From contig JABVCE010000005.1 of the NCBI GenBank assembly GCA_014905635.1, positions 1,240,001-1,304,000 of the forward strand: DNA of 64,000 nt, read 5' to 3'. The notes under the pieces are model-generated. The model had not been told where the DNA came from. It made no database searches and worked only from the letters and a program-made list of their open reading frames with translations. Position 1 is the stretch's first letter. Every line of letters begins with the position of its first letter. Positions 1 to 29,209 of the stretch are shown here, in pieces. Position numbers and translations under genes: made by a program. This DNA comes from Scenedesmus sp. PABB004. Taxonomy: Eukaryota.

Positions 1-3000
1 ATACGCCGCGGCGAGGGCCTCGCCGAAGGTGGTCGTGTTGAGGCCTGCCGCGGCTGCAGGCAGAGCAGGGAGGTGCGGCGCGCGCGAGTCGGGGAGGGGT
101 CAGGCCAGGCGGCAGCGCACGGACCGGCGCGCGCGAGGGCCTGGCGCGCCCCCGACCGCGCGGGCTCCCGCCGCACCCGCGCTGCCGCACGCCTCGGCCA
201 CCGGCGCGACCGTCGAGGGGCTGACCGCCGCCTGCACGCACGCGCGCACGTGAGGGTGTGAGCGACCAGGGCGGCGCGGCTGCCGCGGCCGGCGGGCCGC
301 GCGGCGCGGCGGCGCGCGGCGCGGCGAGCCCGCGGCGGCGTGCGCGCCTGCGCGAGGCCGGTGGAGAGCGCGGTCGTGTTCTCCGGCGGGCAGCGCTTGA
401 CGCCGTCGAGGACGGCGGTGGAGTTGGCGGTCTGCAGGCCGCGGCAGACCTCGGCGAGGCTCGCCTCCGCCTGCGCCGCGCGCGCCTCGGCGACCGACGT
501 GGCGATCGCCTCGGCCTGGCCGCCGTCGCCGCCGCCGCCGCTCGCGGTGGCGCTGGCCGCGCTCGTCGCCTCTGCCGGCGGCGGGGCGGGGGCGGCGCGC
601 GGGGCGCGGGGCGGGCGCAGCGTGGGTCGTGCGCGGCGCCGCGCGGCCAGCAGGCGGCGGCGCAGCTGCCGCGCGCCGCGGCGCGCCCCCGCAGGCCCCC
701 GCACTCACGCGCGACGCTGCCGCCGGAGCCGAGGACCTCCGCGGCGGCGTTGGCAGACGCGCTCGCGCGCCCGCCGCCCGTGGCGCGCGCGACGGCCTGC
801 GCGGCGGCCTGGGCCGCCGCCGGCGCGGCGGCGGGCGCCTCGGCGGTGCACACGGCGGGCTGCTGCGTCGCCGGGACGACGGCGGTGTCGGGCGGGCACC
901 CGCCGGTCGCGCAGCCGCCGATTGGCCCGGGCACGCCGGCGATGTTGACCGCGGGCGAGGGGCTGGGGCTCGCCGCCGGGCTGGGGGAGGCCGACGGCGA
1001 CGGAGAGGGCGAGGGCGACGGCGACGGCGGCGCGGGCACCGGGCTGGTGGCCGGCGCCGGGACGGGCGTGAGGACGGGGATGCCGGCCGCGGTCGCGCCG
1101 GCCGGGCTCGGCGAGGGCGCGGGCGAGCCGACGGCGGCCGCGGGGGCGGGCACGGGCAGCACCGCGGGGATGGGCGCGGAGGGGCTGCGGCGCGGCGGCG
1201 CGCGCGCAGCCGTCGGCGGCGACGGCGAGCGGCGGCGGCGCGCGTGCCGCGCGCGCAGCAGGCAGGGCGCGCAGCATGCGCCGCGCCCACACACCTGGGC
1301 GACGCCGCGGGGGACGGGCTGGGCGACGGCGAGGGGCTGGGCGACGCCGCAGGCGAGGGGCTCGGGCTTGGGCTCGGGGACGCCGCGGGCGAGGGGCTCG
1401 GGCTGGCCGCCGGCAGGCACGCCTGCGCGGCGCTCGCGTCGGCCGAGGCGAGCGCGGAGCTAATGGCCTGGCCGTTGCCGGACGCGATCGCCTGGCTGTA
1501 CGCCTCTGCGGCGGTCAGGGACGGATGGAGGGGGCGGCGGCAGGGGTGGGCGCGCGGGCGGCAGCGCAGCCGCGCGGCCGCGCGCGGCGCGCCCAGGCGG
1601 CAGCGCCGCGCGGCTCACGCGCGAGCGCCTGCGCGGCGGGGCTGCCGCAGCCGCCGCCCGCCGACGCGATGGCCTGGCTGACGGCCTGGGCGGCCGCGGA
1701 CGCGGCCGGGCAGTTGCAGGTGAGGTCCTGGCGCAGCTGGGTGGGGCTCGTCACGTTGACCGCGGGTGCGGGGCTGGCGCTGGGGCTGGGGCTGGGGCTG
1801 ATGCTCTCGATGGCCGCCACGGGCGACGGCGACGCCGCAGGCGCCGGCACCGAGCTGCGGCGGGGCGTGCAGGGCGCCACGGCGGCAGGCCGGCGTCAGC
1901 GCGGAGCGCGCAGCGCGCAGCACGCGTGCAAGCCAGCGGGCGCCCATCGCCGCGCGCCACGCCGCGCCCACCTGGGGCTCGGGGACGCCGCGGGCGAGGG
2001 GCTCGGGCTGGCCGCCGGCAGGCACGCCTGCGCGGCGCTCGCGTCGGCCGAGGCGAGCGCGGAGCTGAAGGCCTGGCCGTTGCCCTGCGCCACGGCCTGG
2101 CTGTACGCCTCTGCGGCGGTCAGGGAGGGATGGAGGGGGTGGCGGCAGGGTGGGCGCGCGGGCGGCAGCACAGCCGCGCGGCGCGCCCAGGCGACGGCGC
2201 TGCGCGGCTCACGCGCGAGCGCCTGCGCGGCGGGGCTGCCGCAGCCGCCGCCGGCGGACGCGATGGCCTGGCTGATCGCGGTCGCGGTGGCCGCCGCCGC
2301 GGGGGTGCCGCTGGTGAGGTCCTGGTTGAGCTGGGTGGGGCTCGTGACGTTGGCGGGCGCGGGCGAGGCCGTGGCGGGCGCCGGCGTGGGGGAGGTGGTG
2401 ACGTTGGCGGGCGCCGGGGCCGGGGAGGCGGTCACGTTGGTCGGCGCCGGGGCCGGGGAGGTGGAGACGTTGGTCGGCGCCGGCGTGGGCGAGGCAGACG
2501 CGGGCGCGGGCGCGGGCGAGCCGACGACCACGACGGCGGGGGCGGGCGAGGGCGAGGGCGTCGGGGTGACAACCACCGGCACCACGGGCACCACCGCCGG
2601 CGTGGCGTTGACGGGCGCCGGCGGGGCCGTCACGTTGGCGGCCGGCGCCGGCGACGGCGAAGAGGCGGGCGCGGGCGACGCCGCCGCGGGCGCGGTGGGC
2701 AGGCAGTCGTTGACGGCGCTCGCGGTCGCGGCGGTCGCGGCAAACGCGTCGCCCTTGCCCTGCGTGTTGGCCAGGCCCTGCGCGGCTGCGGCGCGCGGCG
2801 CGGGCGGGCGGGCGGGCGGGCGGGCGGGCGGGTGGGCGCGGGCGGTGCGGGGCGGCCGGCACAGCGCGCGCGCAGCGCCGCCGCCGCGCGGCGCGGACCT
2901 GCCAGCGTGTTGCCGATGTTGCCGCAGCCGCCGGCGGAGGCGATCGACTGCGCGAGCGCCGCGGCGGTGGCGGCGCCGGCGGGGCAGCCGCAGGTGAAGG

Positions 3001-3765
3001 CAGCGTTGACCGCCTCGGCGACGGCCTCGCTCGACGCCTGGGCGTTGCCTGCGGGCGGCGGGGCGCGGCGCGCGGCGCGCGGTCAGGCGCGCCCGCGGCG
3101 CTGCGCAGCGCGGGGCCGCGGGCGCGGCGCGGCGCGGCGCGGCGCGGCGCGGCGCGCACCGCCGGCGGCCGCCTCGGCAACCGCTTCAGCCACCGCGTTG
3201 GCGTTGCCGGACGCGACGGCGCTGGAGATGGCCTGGGCGCTGCCGCTGCGCAGCGCGTTGCAGATGGCCTGGGCCTGCGCGGCGGGGAGGGGCGGGGCGG
3301 GCGGGCGGGTCCCAGGCGGCAGCGCTCGCGCGGCGGCGGGAGCGCAGCCGGCGCGCACCTGGGCGTTTGAGGTGGCGGTGGAGTTGCCCGTCGCGACGGC
3401 CTGCGCGGCCGCGGTGGCGCTGCAGATGCCGCCGGCGGGCGCCGGGGAGGAGGCCGCCTGGTGCAGGGTGCGCGCGCCTGCGTGCGGGGGGCGGCCGGCG
3501 GCAGCAAACGTCGGCGCCGCGCGCGCGCGGCGGCGCGGGACGCGGCGCCCCGCCGCCGCGCGGCACGGCGGCCGCCGCCGGCGCACGCGATCTGGGCCCG
3601 CGCCGGGCAGCGGATGGCGGCGCGCGGCGCCGGCGCCGCGCAGGCGCGGGCGCGGGCAGCCCCTCGCGCGCGCGCGCGCGCCGGATCACCTGCGGCGCCG
3701 CTGGCGAGGGCCAGCAGCACGCAGAGCGCGGCCGGCAGCATCGCGGTGCGGGTGGGGGAGCCCAT
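1..3765 (-). CDS. Secreted Ser-Pro/Pro-Thr-rich (HRGP-like) protein with repeated Ala-rich Cys-bounded modules; multi-exon, 3' end lies outside the window
   Basis: ATG at 3765 (MGSPTRTAMLPAALCVLLALASGAA, signal-peptide-like). Exons such as QDLTCNCPAASAAAQAVSQAIASAGGGCGSPAAQALA and EAYSQAVAQGNGQAFSSALASADASAAQACLP alternate with SPSPSP and PAPANVT linkers, separated by GT..CAG introns. Coding-like sequence (AAAGLNTTTFGEALAAAY) runs off position 1. Confidence 0.8.
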
Positions 3766-3888
3766 GGCGGGCGGCGCGGCGCGCGGCGGCGCGGAGATCA
3801 AGCCGTGTCGCGCGTCGCAGGCGCGCGTGCGGACGGGCTGGCGCTGCGTTGGGGTGTCGGGGGGCCTGTCTGGATCAAGGGGCGCTGC

Positions 3889-3895
3889 TTTTATG
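3889..3895 (-). promoter_or_regulatory. TATA-like box (CATAAAA) of the left glycoprotein gene
   Basis: The only AT-rich island in the arm, ~130 nt upstream of the ATG at 3765; mirror of 4569-4575. Confidence 0.55.
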
Positions 3896-4568
3896 CCCCG
3901 CTCAGGCGGTTGCTGACGCGCAACGGGCCTGCGCGCCCAGACCCTGCTGCCGCGCACGGCGCGCTCCACCGCCCAGGAGCCGCTCGGACACGGGCGCATT
4001 TGCGGCGCCGACAGCGCCACGCCACGCGCGGCGCCGCCCGATGCCCGGCGCGGCGGGGCCGCCAGCTGGCAGCGGCGGGAACGGCCGCCGCGCCGCGCCG
4101 TGCGGCCCCTGGCCCGGGCGCTGGTCGAGGCGGGACGGCCGGGACGGACTGCACCGCCGGGGTGCCGCTGGAGCCCGCAGCAGCGCCGCAGCGGGCGGCG
4201 CAAGCATAGCGGGACCCCGCGTCGGGCGTCGGCCGCGAGCGTGCCGCGGTCCCGCTATGCTTGCGCCGCCCGCTGCGGCGCTGCTGCGGGCTCCAGCGGC
4301 ACCCCGGCGGTGCAGTCCGTCCCGGCCGTCCCGCCTCGACCAGCGCCCGGGCCAGGGGCCGCACGGCGCGGCGCGGCGGCCGTTCCCGCCGCTGCCAGCT
4401 GGCGGCCCCGCCGCGCCGGGCATCGGGCGGCGCCGCGCGTGGCGTGGCGCTGTCGGCGCCGCAAATGCGCCCGTGTCCGAGCGGCTCCTGGGCGGTGGAG
4501 CGCGCCGTGCGCGGCAGCAGGGTCTGGGCGCGCAGGCCCGTTGCGCGTCAGCAACCGCCTGAGCGGGG

Positions 4569-4575
4569 CATAAAA
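4569..4575 (+). promoter_or_regulatory. TATA-like box (CATAAAA) of the right glycoprotein gene
   Basis: AT-rich island ~130 nt upstream of the ATG at 4699. Confidence 0.55.
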
Positions 4576-4698
4576 GCAGCGCCCCTTGATCCAGACAGGC
4601 CCCCCGACACCCCAACGCAGCGCCAGCCCGTCCGCACGCGCGCCTGCGACGCGCGACACGGCTTGATCTCCGCGCCGCCGCGCGCCGCGCCGCCCGCC

Positions 4699-5821
4699 AT
4701 GGGCTCCCCCACCCGCACCGCGATGCTGCCGGCCGCGCTCTGCGTGCTGCTGGCCCTCGCCAGCGGCGCCGCAGGTGATCCGGGCGCGCGCGCGCGCGCG
4801 AGGGGCTGCCCGCGCCCGCGCCTGCGCGGCGCCGGCGCCGCGCGCCGCCATCCGCTGCCCGGCGCGGGCCCAGATCGCGTGCGCCGGCGGCGGCCGCCGT
4901 GCCGCGCGGCGGCGGCGCCGCGTCCCGCGCCGCCGCGCGCGCGCGCGGCGGCTGACGTTTGCTTCCGCCGCCCGCACGCAGGCGCGCGCACCCTGCACCA
5001 GGCGGCCCCCTCCCCTGCGCCCGCCGGCGGCATCTGCAGCGCCACCGCGGCCGCGCAGGCCGTCGCGACGCAGGGCGGGACCGCCATCTCGCAGGCGCAG
5101 GCGCAGGCGCTCTGCAACGCGCTGCGCAGCGGCTCGGGTGTGGCGGAGGCCGTCTCGTCCGCCACCGCTGCCGGCAACGCGCAGGCGGTGGGCGAGGCTA
5201 TCGCCGAGGTGGTCGGCTCCGGTGAGCGGCGCGGAATGCTTGCGCGCGCCGCGCGCCGCCGCCGCCCGCTCTGATCAGCCGCCCGCGCCGCCGCCGCGCG
5301 CCGCCGCGCCGACCAGGCCAGGCGAGCTCGACCGCCGCGGCCGAGGCCATCGGGACCGCCCTGACCTGCGGCTGCCCCGCCGCGCCCGCCACCGCGGCCG
5401 CGCTGTCCAACGCCATCGCCTCGGGCGGCTGCGGCCCCTACAGCCAGGCGCTCGCGGGTGGGCCGCGCCGCGCCGCCGACGCGACCCCCGCCCGCCCGCC
5501 CGCCCGTGGCGCTGCCGGCCCGGCCGCGCCCCCCTGCCGACTGCCGCGACGCCCGCCGCGCCGCCGCGCGCAGAGGCTGCCTCCACCGCGCAGGCGTCGG
5601 GCCAGGGCCAGGCGTTTGCCAACGCGCTGGCCAGCGCGGAGGGCGTCAACGCGTGCCTGCCGGCCACGAGCCCCGCCCCGGCGGCGAGCCCCAGCCCGAG
5701 CCCGGCGCCGGTCACCGTGGTCGGCTCGCCCACGCCGTCGCCGTCGCCGTCGCCGTCGCCCAGCCCGAGCCGCGCCCGGCGTCGCCCTCTCCCTCGCCCT
5801 CTCCGTCGCCCTCGCCTCGCC

Positions 5822-5852
<31 letters not shown>

Positions 5853-7891
5853 GCCCAGCCCGCGGCCGAGCCCGAGCCCGAGCCCGCCGGTCTCCGTGGT
5901 CGGCTCGCCCGCGCCCTCTCCCTCGCGCAGCCCGAGCCCCAGGTGGGTGCGGCGCGGTTGCCGGCGCGCGCGCGTCGCTGCACGCTGCGCGCTCCGCGTG
6001 CGCTGTGCCCCGCTGCGCGCTGCTCGGCGTCAATGGCTGCCCGCCGCCGTGGCGCGCGCCCCGCCGCGCTCGCAGCCCGGTGCCGTCAGCGGTCATCACG
6101 AGCCCCAGCCCCAGCCCCAGCGCCAGCCCCGCGCCGACCAACCCCGCGCGCATCCAGCAGGACCTCACCTGCAACTGCCCGGCGGCGGCGGCCACCGCGA
6201 CCGCCGTCAGCCAGGCCATCGCGTCCGCCGGCGGCGGCTGCGGCAGCCCCGCCGCGCAGGCGCTCGCGCGTGAGCCGCGCGGCGCCGTCGCCTGGGCGTG
6301 CCGCGCGGCTGCGCTGCCGCCCGCGCGCCCACCCCTGCCGCCGACCCCTCCATCCCTCCCTGACCGCCGCAGAGGCGTACAGCCAGGCCGTGGCGCAGGG
6401 CAACGGCCAGGCCTTCAGCTCCGCGCTCGCCTCGGCCGACGCGAGCGCCGCGCAGGCGTGCCTGCCGGCGGCCAGCCCGAGCCCCTCGCCCGCGGCGTCC
6501 CCGAGCCCCAGGTGGGCGCGGCGTGGCGCGCGGCGATGGGCGCCCGCTGGCTTGCGCGCGCGCTGCGCGCTGCGCGCTCCGCGCTGACGCCGACCTGCCG
6601 CCGTGCCGCCCCGCACGCCCCGCCGCAGCCCGGTGCCGGCGCCTGCGGTGTCGCCGTCGCCGTCGCCCGTGGCGGCCATCGAGAGCATCAGCCCCAGCCC
6701 CAGCCCCAGCCCCGCGCCGGCGCCGCCCACCACGCGGCCGACAATCTGCTCCGGCGGCGGCGCCAGCGCGTCTGCAGTCTCCTCCGCCATCGCCCAGGCC
6801 TCGGGCGGCGGCAGCGCGGCGGCGCAGGCGTCCTCCACCGCGCAGGCGCTGTCGCCGCTGTGCTCAGGCGTGGCCTCGGCCAACAGCCAGGCCATCGCCC
6901 AGAGCGTGGTCAGCGCGCCCGCCGGCTCCGCGCCCGCGGTGTCCACCGCGCTGGCGCAGGCCGGTGCGCGCGGCTCGGCGAGCCCCCCGCGCGGCCGCGC
7001 CGCGCCGCCGCCGCCGCGCGCGTGCTCACTGCCGCCGCCGCGCCGCCGCTGCCGCCGCCGCCGCAGCCGCCAACGCGCAGACCGCCGGCGCCGTCGCCGA
7101 GGCTGCGGCGTCCACGGCGGCCGCGGGCGGCAACACCACGGCCTACGCGGAGGCGATCGCGACCGCGCTCGCTGCCGGCGGCGCGCCCGCGCAGGCGATG
7201 AGCTCCGCACTGTCGCAGGTGCGCGCGCGCGCCGCGGGCGCCCGGGCTGCCCCGCGGCCGGCCGCGCCGCGCGCGCGACGGCCGCCGCCTGCCACTGCCG
7301 CCCGCCGCCCGCAGGCCGCCGCCACCGGCGGCTGCGCCGGCGTCGCCCAGGCGCTCGCGCGTGAGTGGGGCGCGCGGCGCGCCCTGCGCGCTGCCTCGCC
7401 AGCAGTGCCGTCGCCGCTGCCGACGCGCGCGAGCGCCGCGCGCGCCCGCAGAGGCCGAGACCGTGGCTGCGTCCCAGGGCAACGCCACCGCCGCCGCCGA
7501 AGCGCGCGCTGAGGCCGCTTCGCTGTGCCCGCCCGGCCGCCCGCGTCGCGCCGCGCCCGCGTCGCCCGCGCCCGCGTCGCCCGCGCCCGCCGGCGGCGTC
7601 GCCGCCGCGGGTGTGGGCGCGGGCGCCGGCCTGCGCCGCTGCAACGCCGCCTTTGTCGGCGACTGCTGCGCCGGCCGCTTCGCGGCGGGCCAGGAGTGCA
7701 GCTGCACCAGGTGCGCCGCGCGCGCCGCGCCTGGCGGGCTGCACAGCGCGCGCGCGCCCCGGCCGTGTGCTGAGCGGCCGCCGCTGCCGCCGCTCCGCAG
7801 CACCGGCGGGCTGTGCCTGCGCCGCGTGGTGTCTCTCAACCCCACCGTGGTGCAGACGGGCGGCATCGCCGCCACGCGCTGCGTGTGCTAG
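4699..7891 (+). CDS. Secreted Ser-Pro-rich (HRGP-like) protein, paralog of the left gene, with Ala/Cys modules and a C-terminal 8-Cys domain; multi-exon
   Basis: Same signal peptide as the left gene; (SP)n tract at ~5690-5940 with an apparent frameshift near 5770; ends in CNAAFVGDCCAGRFAAGQECSCT/STGGLCLRRVVSLNPTVVQTGGIAATRCVC, TAG at 7889-7891. Confidence 0.8.
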
Positions 7892-8766
7892 GCGGCAAGC
7901 GCGCCGCGCCGCGCGGCGGCGGCGCCGCGTGCGCGCGTGAGTGCGTCCGGGACCCTGCACCGCGCGAGTGCGGCCGGGGAGCTTGATCAGAGCTTACTTA
8001 CTTGACCAGAGCATTTAGACCAGGGCGGCGCCGGCGCGACAACGCACTCCCACAAACCCCAACCCCCACGCTGCACGCGCCGCGCCGCGCGCCCCGCGCG
8101 CGCCGCCCCTGTGCCCCGCCCCCGGGTTGCGTGTGCATCTTCCATGGCTCCGGCGGCCGACCTTGACTCCGCGGCGGGCGCACGCGAGGCCCGCCGCGCG
8201 CTGGCTTGGCAGTGGGGGCGGGGCGGGGCTACGGGGCCGCCCCTGGAGCAGGGGCGCGCGCGCGGGCGGCGGCGGCGGGCGACTGCATTGGCTGCGTCGT
8301 GCCCGGCGGCCTGCATCAGGCGTAACCGCAACGACGTTGAAGAGTTACGGCCCGCGCGCCGGACCCCAGCAGCGCCGCCGCCGGGGCAGCAGCGCGCGTC
8401 GCAGCGCCGTCGCGCCGCCGCCGCGCGCGTCAAGCGGCCGCCCGCCCGCCGGCCCGCGTCACGCGCCGCAGCAGGGGTGACGGTGGTGGTTGGGGAGGGA
8501 AGGGGGTCCGCACCGCAGTGCGACAGAAGGAAGGGTGAGAGAGAGGGACGCGCAGTCAAACAGCGGCCAACGCGTGCGCACGCGCCGCAGACCAGCCATT
8601 TTTTTCAGGCGTGCGCGGGCACGCCTGTTATTGACGCCGCGCGCCGTGTCGAGAGCTGCGGTTGGGTTGAAACGCCTGCTGCGAAGTTCACGACGGCGGC
8701 GGCCGGGCACGCGGCCGCGGCGAGGCCCGAGGCCCGGCCCGGCTCCGCCAGGCGACGCCGCCGCCG

Positions 8767-10848: not shown

Positions 10849-14290
<3,442 letters not shown>

Positions 14291-22602: not shown

Positions 22603-23602
22603 TGGGGCGCTGGGCGTGCGGGGCGCGGCGCGCGCGCGCGGCGCCGGCGGCGGCGGCTGCCGGGCGCACCGAGCGCGAGCAGCACGAGCCGGATGCCGCC
22701 CTCCCTCAGCGTCGCGAGGCCCGGCCCCAGCAGCTGCCGCACGCGCGCCCGCACGGCGTCGGCAAAGCCGCGCGGCTCGGTGGCCGGGTCGGGCAGCTCC
22801 AGCGGCACGCCGCCGGCTGCGGCGAGCGTGGCGGGCGGGTGCGTCGGCGGGGCGTGCCAGGGAGGGCCCTCCGGCAGCGCGGCCTGCCGCGGCGCGCACC
22901 CTCTGGGAGCGCCAGGAAGGCGGCCACGGCCTCCGGGGAGCTGGGCAGCCGCAGCAGCAGCGACATGCACCGCGCCCCGCCCGCGCCGCCGCCGTCGTCT
23001 GCAACGGTGCCGTGCGGCGCGTGAGCGGGTGCGCGCGCGCGCGCAAGGCCTGCTGCCAGCGTGCGCGCGTGCGTCGCGCACCCGTGAACGCCTGGAAGCC
23101 ATCACCGCCAAACACCTGCGACTGCAGGTTGGCCAGCCGCGGCGCGCCTGCGGGCGGCGCGCGCGCCGGCGCGGGCTCAGCGAGCTCCCCACGCGCGCGC
23201 CGCGGCCTGGTTGGCACGCCGCCAGCCCAGTCCAGCCGGCCAGCGGCAGGAGCACGCACCGTCGCCGTCGCCGTCGCCGCGCGCCGCCAACAGGATCTGC
23301 AGCCCGCGCCCGCGGCTCAGCTGGAAGAGGCAGGAGAAGCGGCTGCTGCCCACGCTCGCCTCCGCCCGCCAGGCCGGCCCCGCGCTGGCACGCAGGCGCC
23401 CGATCTCCTCCGCGCAGCCTGCGTGCGTCAGGCGCTCCACCAGGGGGCCCGGCCAGGCGAGGTCGGCAAACGCGAAAGTGCTGCGCCGAGCCGCCGCGCC
23501 CAGGCCCTTGAGCGCGGCCACGAGGTAGGCCTCGATGTCGCGCGGCGCCTCCGCGCCCGCGCGCAGCGAGGCGGCGTCCACCACCGCCCAGTGGGCGTGC
23601 AT
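15079..23602 (-). CDS. Very large multi-exon protein with structured N-terminal/central exons and a long S/T-P-rich disordered C-terminus; tentatively Treslin/TICRR-like
   Basis: ATG at 23602 (MHAHWAVVDAAS). Coding-like exons include LYPLFVDEYDPAESALDEKWPLRVLPK, WPLLVLDPLFWLLFVLHAMVE and VDGFLYLLHSGWVKW, joined by GT-AG introns, followed by a long low-complexity exon at 15079-19100. Whether this is one gene, and its identity, are both inferred. Confidence 0.5.
15838..16250 (-). repeat. Coding Ala/Glu tandem repeats (AAEAAAAAAAE; AAAQAAADAAAAAEAD)
   Basis: Imperfect short-period (roughly 24-45 nt) repeats visible in the DNA and in ORF 15079..17136. Confidence 0.85.
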
Positions 23603-24102
23603 CGCGGCCGCGCCTATGCACCCCCCACGCGCATCGCCGGTGCGGCGCGCGACAGCGCGGCAGCGCGAGTCGCCAGTGCGCCACACAGCGGGCGGCCCTG
23701 GGCGGCGCGGCCGGGCGCGCGGGCGCGCGGGCGGGGAGCGCGGGAGGCGGAGGCGTTCAAACGCCGCGGCACTAACACGCTCCCCGGGCGCCCGGTCGCG
23801 CGGCAGCGCGGCAGCGCGGCAGGGCGGCAGCGTGCCTCGCTCCCCGTCGTGCGCGGCTTGCGTGCGGGCGCGCGGCCCGGCGCCTGCCGCCGCCGGGGGG
23901 CGGCGCGCGGCCGCTGCCGCTGCCGCTGCCGGCGGCGCGCGAGCGATGCCAGGCGGCGCGTGCCGCGCGCGCAAAAGCTGCCGCGCGACTGCGGTCGGTC
24001 GACGCACGGGTCTCTGTCGCGACGCCCCGACCTGACGCCCACCGCGCGCCCGGCCAGCGGCGGCGCCCGGCCGCCGAGCCACAGCCCGCCACGCCGCAGC
24101 GC
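23519..24102. repeat. Left copy of a ~590 bp inverted duplication (promoter plus first codons of the 23602 gene)
   Basis: Reverse complement of 28602-29209 with few mismatches (e.g. ttcaaacgccgcggcactaacacgctccccgg vs ccggggagcgtgttagtgccgcggcgtttgaa). Confidence 0.95.
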
Positions 24103-28601: not shown

Positions 28602-29209
28602 GCGCCGCGGCGTGGCGGGCTGTGGCTCGGCGGCCGGGCGCCGCCGCCGTTGGCCGGCCGCGCGGTGGGCGTCAGGTCGGGGCGTCGCGACAGAGACCCG
28701 TGCGTCGACCGACCGCAGTCGCGCGGCAGCTTTTGCGCGCGCGGCACGCGCCGCCTGGCATCGCTCGCGCGCCGCCGGCAGCGGCAGCGGCAGCGGCCGC
28801 GCGCCGCCCCCCGGCGGCGGCAGGCGCCGGGCCGCGCGCCCGCACGCAAGCCGCGCACGACGGGGAGCGAGGCGCGCTGCCGCCCTGCCGCGCTGCCGCG
28901 CTGCCGCGCGACCGGGCGCCCGGGGAGCGTGTTAGTGCCGCGGCGTTTGAACGCCTCCGCCTCCCGCGCTCCCCGCCCGCGCGCCCGCGCGCCCGGCCGC
29001 GCCGCCCAGGGCCGCCCGCTGTGTGGCGCACTGGCGACTCGCGCTGCCGCGCTGTCGCGCGCCGCACCGGCGATGCGCGTGGGGGGTGCATAGGCGCGGC
29101 CGCGATGCACGCCCACTGGGCGGTGGTGGACCGCGCGCAGCGAGGCGGCGACGCCGCCTCGCTGCGCGCGGGCGCGGAGGCGCCGCGCGACATCGAGGCC
29201 TACCTCGTG
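28602..29209. repeat. Right copy of the ~590 bp inverted duplication
   Basis: Reverse complement of 23519-24102 plus a 21-nt insertion at 29131-29151. Confidence 0.95.

What the first reader, a model, noticed from the sequence alone, without database searches (positions are those of the whole stretch)
3390..5070. Head-to-head gene pair built on a near-perfect palindrome with a 31-nt loop
Seen: the whole intergenic promoter, both TATA-like boxes, 5'UTRs, signal-peptide exons and first introns are mirror images about position 4232, with only a 31-nt spacer. Identity decays outward rather than ending abruptly. Established: long palindromes with short spacers can extrude cruciforms, are unstable and undergo arm-to-arm gene conversion. 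Inference: this arose by fold-back duplication, and ongoing conversion keeps the two promoters identical, forcing co-expression of two diverging wall proteins.
Basis: partly seen in the sequence, partly recalled or inferred. Interest (0 to 1): 0.75.

Follow-up and report, generated by a model that had tools for sequence, protein, structure and literature searches.

The report
Mirror-image gene pair, patchily homogenised
Two old, quite different copies of a secreted-protein gene sit back to back, with mirror-identical promoters around a 31-base gap, most likely because sequence is repeatedly copied between the two arms, a known pattern here seen with an unusually short gap.

Summary
The palindrome is in the assembly: perfect arms 3681-4216 and 4248-4783 (536 nt each) around a 31-nt spacer, covering both promoters, 5'UTRs and exon 1. 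But identity does not decay outward. It drops abruptly at 3389/5070 to about 67%, then returns in two distant patches: one internal domain with two introns (94-100%) and the distal 3' region (92.5%). The real unit is an interrupted inverted repeat of about 9.7 kb holding two old paralogs (47-69% amino-acid identity outside the patches, introns there at background level, one intron present in one gene only). Best reading: old inverted duplication plus repeated, patchy arm-to-arm gene conversion, most recent at the centre. The same architecture is published for Caenorhabditis (PMC1803023), and this scan noted similar cases on other DNA. Distinctive here are the short spacer and proteins (Ala-rich helical domains, Ser-Pro linkers) for which I found no relatives. 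Not shown: read support, fold-back origin, cruciform extrusion, co-expression, wall location. Each gene has one apparent 1-nt frameshift, probably assembly error, so an artefact in the core is not excluded.

The parts
3681..4216 (.). left perfect arm (start of intron 1, exon 1, 5'UTR and promoter of gene A)
   Evidence: 536-nt exact mirror of 4248-4783
4217..4247 (.). 31-nt non-palindromic spacer, 27 of 31 G+C
4248..4783 (.). right perfect arm (promoter, 5'UTR, exon 1, start of intron 1 of gene B)
3389..3680 (-). outer, imperfect part of central block in gene A (rest of intron 1, first 89 nt of exon 2); abrupt end at 3389
   Evidence: differences listed; intron 1 93%, exon 2 5' part 98%
4784..5070 (+). 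outer, imperfect part of central block in gene B; abrupt end at 5070
3889..3895 (-). TATA-like CATAAAA of gene A, about 125 nt upstream of ATG
   Evidence: seen in sequence; function not tested
4569..4575 (+). TATA-like CATAAAA of gene B
   Evidence: seen in sequence; function not tested
1..3765 (-). gene A, 14 modelled exons, about 966 codons; continues past the window's left edge to its stop at L008:9329; one GC-AG intron inferred (347-232); 1-nt phase mismatch in exon 231-125
   Evidence: hand model from splice sites and frames
4699..7891 (+). gene B, 11 modelled exons, about 680 codons; 1-nt phase mismatch in the Ser-Pro run near 5770
3275..3358 (-). 84-nt intron present in gene A, absent at the matching place of gene B exon 2
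1776..2324 (-). second near-identical patch in gene A (domain 2a with two introns)
   Evidence: 95% to 6158-6713, 211-nt exact run; introns 94% and 96%
6158..6713 (+). second near-identical patch in gene B (domain 2)
1367..1772 (-). tandem second copy of domain 2 in gene A (2b)
   Evidence: 87% to 1972-2363; three-way alignment
8063..8472 (+). third near-identical patch, distal 3' region of gene B; its mirror lies outside the window at L008:8761-9154
   Evidence: 92.5%; abrupt outer end

Best explanation
An old inverted duplication made two divergent paralogs of a secreted, modular protein (signal peptide, Ala-rich Cys-bounded helical domains, Ser-Pro/Ala-Pro linkers, C-terminal Cys domain). 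They diverged in most exons, introns and domain number. Because the arms lie close and inverted, repair has repeatedly copied stretches of 0.4-0.8 kb from one arm to the other (intrachromatid gene conversion, probably through hairpin pairing of single-stranded DNA during replication or resection rather than a cruciform). The centre was homogenised most recently or most often, so the two promoters are identical. Shown: geometry, mosaic, age of the paralogs. Inferred: conversion as cause, hairpin route, co-regulation, wall or surface role.
For: Unconverted exons: 47-69% aa identity, 37 of 101 four-fold sites differ (about 51% expected at saturation); domain-2 exons 2 of 46. Four positionally matching introns outside patches 57-70%, like 59 non-homologous control pairs (mean 65%, sd 6%, max 76%); introns inside patches 93, 94, 96%; distal 3' region 92.5% behind a 68% proximal stretch. 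Intron present in A only. Inside intron 1, 6 of 7 events lie in the last 73 of 212 nt (p 0.008, breakpoint chosen after the fact). Promoter DNA has only these two strong matches among 7 in the genome, the other 5 being 71-77% over short GC-rich pieces; exon searches hit only this locus strongly. Same pattern in Caenorhabditis (PMC1803023).
Against: No outgroup or population data, so direction and recurrence of conversion are not observed. A three-copy mosaic test was strong with all sites (0 of 1000 permutations) but not significant once the Ser-Pro linker was dropped and clustered sites merged (251 of 1000). One apparent 1-nt frameshift in each gene suggests residual assembly errors. The domain-2 patch could be a recent domain insertion rather than conversion in place.
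Confidence: 0.72

Rival explanations
1. The short-spacer palindrome is young: one fold-back or template-switch event copied the 5' end of one gene over that of an older head-to-head neighbour, with no recurrent conversion at the promoter.
For: Abrupt junction at 3389/5070 inside exon 2. The genome makes local inverted duplications readily: 4 others of 0.6-1.6 kb, 95.6-99.3% identical, in 694 kb. Fold-back at short interrupted repeats is a described route (PMC4689423, passages).
Against: One event predicts evenly spread differences; all 9 lie beyond the first 533 of 828 nt (p about 1e-4), though several are 1-2 nt indels that may be sequencing errors and promoter constraint could add to it. It does not explain the two distant patches.
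Confidence: 0.13
2. The perfect core is an assembly artefact (fold-back chimera, or consensus homogenisation of two similar arms).
For: No read check was possible; apparent single-base errors in both genes; palindromes are hard to sequence (PMC4689423 passage).
Against: The locus is interior to a 1.63-Mb contig and each arm runs on into a different gene and unique flank; no orphan third copy of exon 2; substitutions and a 7-nt indel separate the outer arms; two other patches show real arm-to-arm transfer.
Confidence: 0.1
3. Purifying selection alone keeps promoter, one domain and the 3' end identical.
For: The conserved stretches include regulatory regions and one whole domain.
Against: Introns and synonymous sites inside the patches are as conserved as coding sites, while neighbouring introns are at background.
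Confidence: 0.05

Closest known systems
Divergent paralog pairs with palindromic intergenic regions in Caenorhabditis (Zhao et al. 2007, PMC1803023; parts 1-3 of 4 of the text read)
   Same: [quoted passage not shown]
   Different: Spacers quoted there are 126 and 414 bp against 31 nt here; that work had orthologs in three species, I have none; here two further distal patches exist.
C. elegans hsp16 inverted module (review PMC3966223, passages)
   Same: 100% identical inverted arms attributed to conversion, tracts including introns.
   Different: 1.9-kb arms, 416-bp loop, genes identical; here the proteins are old and divergent.
Arm-to-arm conversion in Y-chromosome palindromes (as cited in PMC1803023; details recalled)
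   Same: Inverted arms evolving in concert.
   Different: Far larger arms and spacers, near-uniform identity.
Fold-back inverted duplications (ODIRA / tandem inverted duplication, PMC4689423, passages)
   Same: Head-to-head junction with a short non-palindromic centre.
   Different: Those are fresh amplicons with identical arms; origin by this route is not testable here.
Chimeric hydroxyproline-rich glycoproteins of green algae with Ser-Pro shafts (recalled, no call)
   Same: Signal peptide and (Ser-Pro)n linkers between globular domains.
   Different: The Ala-rich and C-terminal Cys domains matched no family or protein in my searches; glycosylation and location untested.

Membership tests
Inverted paralog pair under gene conversion | Adjacent paralogs in inverted orientation with palindromic intergenic region | tested here: met
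Inverted paralog pair under gene conversion | Near-identical tracts, including neutral sites, inside old divergent paralogs | tested here: met
   introns 93-96% vs 57-70%; four-fold sites 2 of 46 vs 37 of 101
Inverted paralog pair under gene conversion | Tree topology switches along the sequence | tested here: inconclusive
   0 of 1000 permutations with all sites, 251 of 1000 in the conservative version
Inverted paralog pair under gene conversion | Arms more alike within than between species | not testable with these tools
   genome has no relatives in the held set
Fresh fold-back duplication | Arms uniformly identical over the whole duplicated unit | tested here: not met
   most exons 47-69% aa identity, different exon numbers
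Transposon with long terminal inverted repeats | Arms occur in many copies and flank an internal element | tested here: not met
   two strong copies only, arms are host promoter and exon DNA (that search gives lower bounds)
Cruciform-extruding palindrome | Extrusion in duplex DNA in vivo | not testable with these tools
   single-strand hairpin is stable but spacer is 31 nt and 87% G+C
Hydroxyproline-rich wall glycoprotein | Signal peptide and Ser-Pro repeat linkers | tested here: met
   seen in translations; signal peptide judged by eye, no predictor run
Hydroxyproline-rich wall glycoprotein | Hydroxylation, glycosylation, wall location | not testable with these tools
   needs proteomics or localisation
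Known protein domain family for the Ala-rich domain | Profile or fold match | tested here: inconclusive
   single exons only could be searched; four-helix model pLDDT 70.7, best Z 4.6

The most novel reading that the evidence does not exclude
The palindrome is functional rather than a by-product. Either a crossover in the collinear domain-2 patch flips the central 3.8 kb and swaps the N-terminal halves in frame, so that cells carry two isomers making different pairs of surface proteins; or transcripts running upstream from one promoter cross the spacer and fold into a perfect hairpin of several hundred base pairs that yields small RNAs against both promoters. The proteins would also be an undescribed algal secreted family.
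Probability: 0.08. Interest if true: 0.65.

Novelty: new member of a known kind. Interest (0 to 1): 0.28.

Why it matters
As it stands it is a clean example of concerted evolution that equalises regulatory DNA while coding sequence diverges, with a spacer shorter than the published examples I read. If reads confirm it, it shows a eukaryote tolerating a 536-bp perfect palindrome with a 31-nt loop in a promoter, and it offers a compact locus for measuring conversion tracts, isomer flipping and hairpin-RNA production.

Tried and rejected
Sequencing runs: none was listed, so no reads were laid. Protein relatives: 0 of 2646 and 0 of 2554 candidates scored (only longer proteins searched, weak evidence); 0 hits among 1.84 billion representatives for a 73-aa exon piece; Atlas no usable hit for two exons; Pfam 0 families for 9 exon pieces and 3 more; PDB sequence profile best E 0.77; fold searches nothing clear. 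All used single exons or an intron read-through of 30-190 aa with biased composition, so absence is not shown. A 37-nt centre pattern found 0 metagenome stretches. Weak own-genome hits L014, L016-L018 were read and judged spurious. One search used a complexity filter that removed long repeats, including the focal one; redone. One search used a wrong end for gene A's last exon; the last-exon (71%) and proximal 3'UTR (68%) values come. The conservative three-copy test failed. No earlier notes on this genome or this protein. Six paper searches (listings only unless cited) showed no paper on this locus or protein; subscription journals are largely missing, and no supplements were read.

Full report
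Setting. The window is G000:C46:1240001-1304000, in a 39.97-Mb, 80-contig assembly; contig C46 is 1.63 Mb. G+C is 0.74-0.86 along the window. That it is a green alga is my inference from composition and intron style, not a tool result. Negative coordinates below lie left of the window (locus L008).

The observation. The arms 3681-4216 and 4248-4783 are exact mirror images over 536 nt around a 31-nt spacer. They hold each promoter with a TATA-like CATAAAA, the 5'UTR, exon 1 and the first bases of intron 1. After a 1-nt indel a further 133 nt match exactly. The block continues to 3389/5070 with 9 difference events in all, none in the first 533 nt. In 694 kb scanned (294 kb around the window, 100 kb each from four other contigs) it is the only exact inverted repeat with arms over 60 nt and a spacer up to 1 kb; two small ones of 44 and 52 nt were also listed. 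The sample is under 2% of the genome and contains the selected locus.

Identity does not fade outward. Beyond 3389/5070, inside exon 2, it falls at once to 67% (2499-3280 vs 5095-5864), returns to 95% at 1776-2324 vs 6158-6713, is lost again, and returns in the 3' region (-1239 to -590 vs 7810-8472, with exact runs of 116, 87 and 47 nt). The whole unit is an interrupted inverted repeat of about 9.7 kb.

The genes. Hand models give gene A (minus, ATG 3765, stop -671) 14 exons and about 966 codons, and gene B (plus, 4699-7891) 11 exons and about 680 codons. Both encode a signal-peptide-like start, Ala-rich domains bounded by Cys, Ser-Pro or Ala-Pro linkers and a C-terminal Cys-rich domain. A has two copies of domain 2, B one. 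A has an 84-nt intron that B lacks. Each model has one 1-nt phase mismatch, near 5770 in B's Ser-Pro run and in A's exon 231-125; downstream exons stay open with normal splice sites, so I read these as probable assembly errors, unproven. One A intron needs a GC donor. Own-genome searches with three different exons hit only this locus strongly: 2 of 2 matches, 5 of 5, 2 of 2. A model of 63 residues of domain 1 shows four short helices at pLDDT 70.7. No family, relative or fold was identified (see Tried and rejected); 'wall protein' rests on the Ser-Pro linkers and recalled knowledge of algal hydroxyproline-rich glycoproteins.

Age and mosaic. Six exon pairs outside the patches have 47-69% amino-acid identity and differ at 37 of 101 four-fold sites, against about 51% expected at saturation for this base usage; the two domain-2 exon pairs have 89% and 100% and differ at 2 of 46. 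Four matching introns outside the patches are 57-70% identical, the same as 59 non-homologous control pairs (mean 65%, sd 6%, maximum 76%); the three inside are 93%, 94% and 96%; the distal 3' region is 92.5% behind a 68% proximal stretch. Old paralogs with young, neutral-site-inclusive patches at matching positions are the signature of sequence transfer between arms. Within intron 1, 6 of 7 events lie in the last 73 of 212 nt (p 0.008, boundary chosen after the fact), which suggests nested tracts of different age. Against this: a three-copy test (A2a, A2b, B2) that gave 0 of 1000 permutations with all 50 informative sites gave 251 of 1000 when the low-complexity linker was dropped and clustered sites merged into 15 events, so it is not independent proof.

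Mechanism. Most likely an old inverted duplication, then repeated intrachromatid conversion. A single-strand hairpin route would explain both the central tract and the distant ones. This is inference from yeast. Identical promoters and similar 3' ends make co-regulation likely, but no expression data were available.

Genome background. Four other local two-copy inverted duplications (arms 0.6-1.6 kb, 95.6-99.3%, gaps 1.2-6.3 kb) lie in the 694 kb, one of them in this window. The genome thus generates inverted copies often, which makes both the origin of this pair and a recent single fold-back at its centre plausible. Inverted duplications at inversion breakpoints are known from Drosophila (PMC1885836, abstract only).

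Artefact. Not excluded without reads. Against it: interior position, two different genes and unique flanks on the two sides, real substitutions in the outer arms, no orphan copy of exon 2, and two independent patches that a fold-back read would not create.

What is known. Zhao et al. 2007 (PMC1803023, parts 1-3 of 4 read) describe divergent paralog pairs in Caenorhabditis whose intergenic regions are near-perfect inverted repeats, including one pair 100% identical for its first 297 nt but 59.6% overall, and propose conversion and a possible cruciform role in transcription. The hsp16 module is reviewed in PMC3966223 (passages), which also warns that incomplete recent duplication can mimic conversion. 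Earlier notes of this scan report similar mosaics on other genomes (unchecked). So this is a new member of a known kind, unusual in its short spacer and unassigned proteins.

Verdict. Observation partly confirmed, interpretation partly supported, interest 0.28. The boldest reading left open, a flipping cassette or hairpin-RNA source, has about 8% probability.

Noticed in passing
window 23519-24102 and 28602-29209: Two-copy inverted duplication (95.6%, 4.5-kb gap). It appears to hold a bidirectional promoter: the left copy leads into a minus-strand gene, the right copy sits upstream of a zinc-knuckle gene (PF00098; ATG 28509) and carries a truncated start of the first gene. Fits an inversion with a duplicated breakpoint.
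   Followed up: partly
G000:C46:1124298-1133713; C1:379127-384728; C1:300058-303028 (L039): Three more local inverted duplications, 98-99% identical; the last duplicates a tRNA-Asp gene. About 4 per 694 kb suggests a genome-wide process worth a full scan.
   Followed up: partly
window 8310-8350 and its mirror in L008: The conserved 3' patch carries CGTAA on both strands, like the green-algal poly(A) signal TGTAA (recalled); it may serve both the gene and its convergent neighbour.
   Followed up: no
window about 5770 and 125-231: One-base phase mismatches in both genes; probably residual assembly errors, which would also affect gene annotation elsewhere in this assembly.
   Followed up: partly
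G000:C4:508510-554653 (L059-L064): Cluster of direct duplications, including a roughly 4-kb unit repeated in tandem at 98-99% identity.
   Followed up: no
window 12170-12333 and about 9.2 kb left of the window: Long dinucleotide-repeat tracts of about 160 nt on both sides of the locus, matching in inverted orientation; probably unrelated microsatellites.
   Followed up: no
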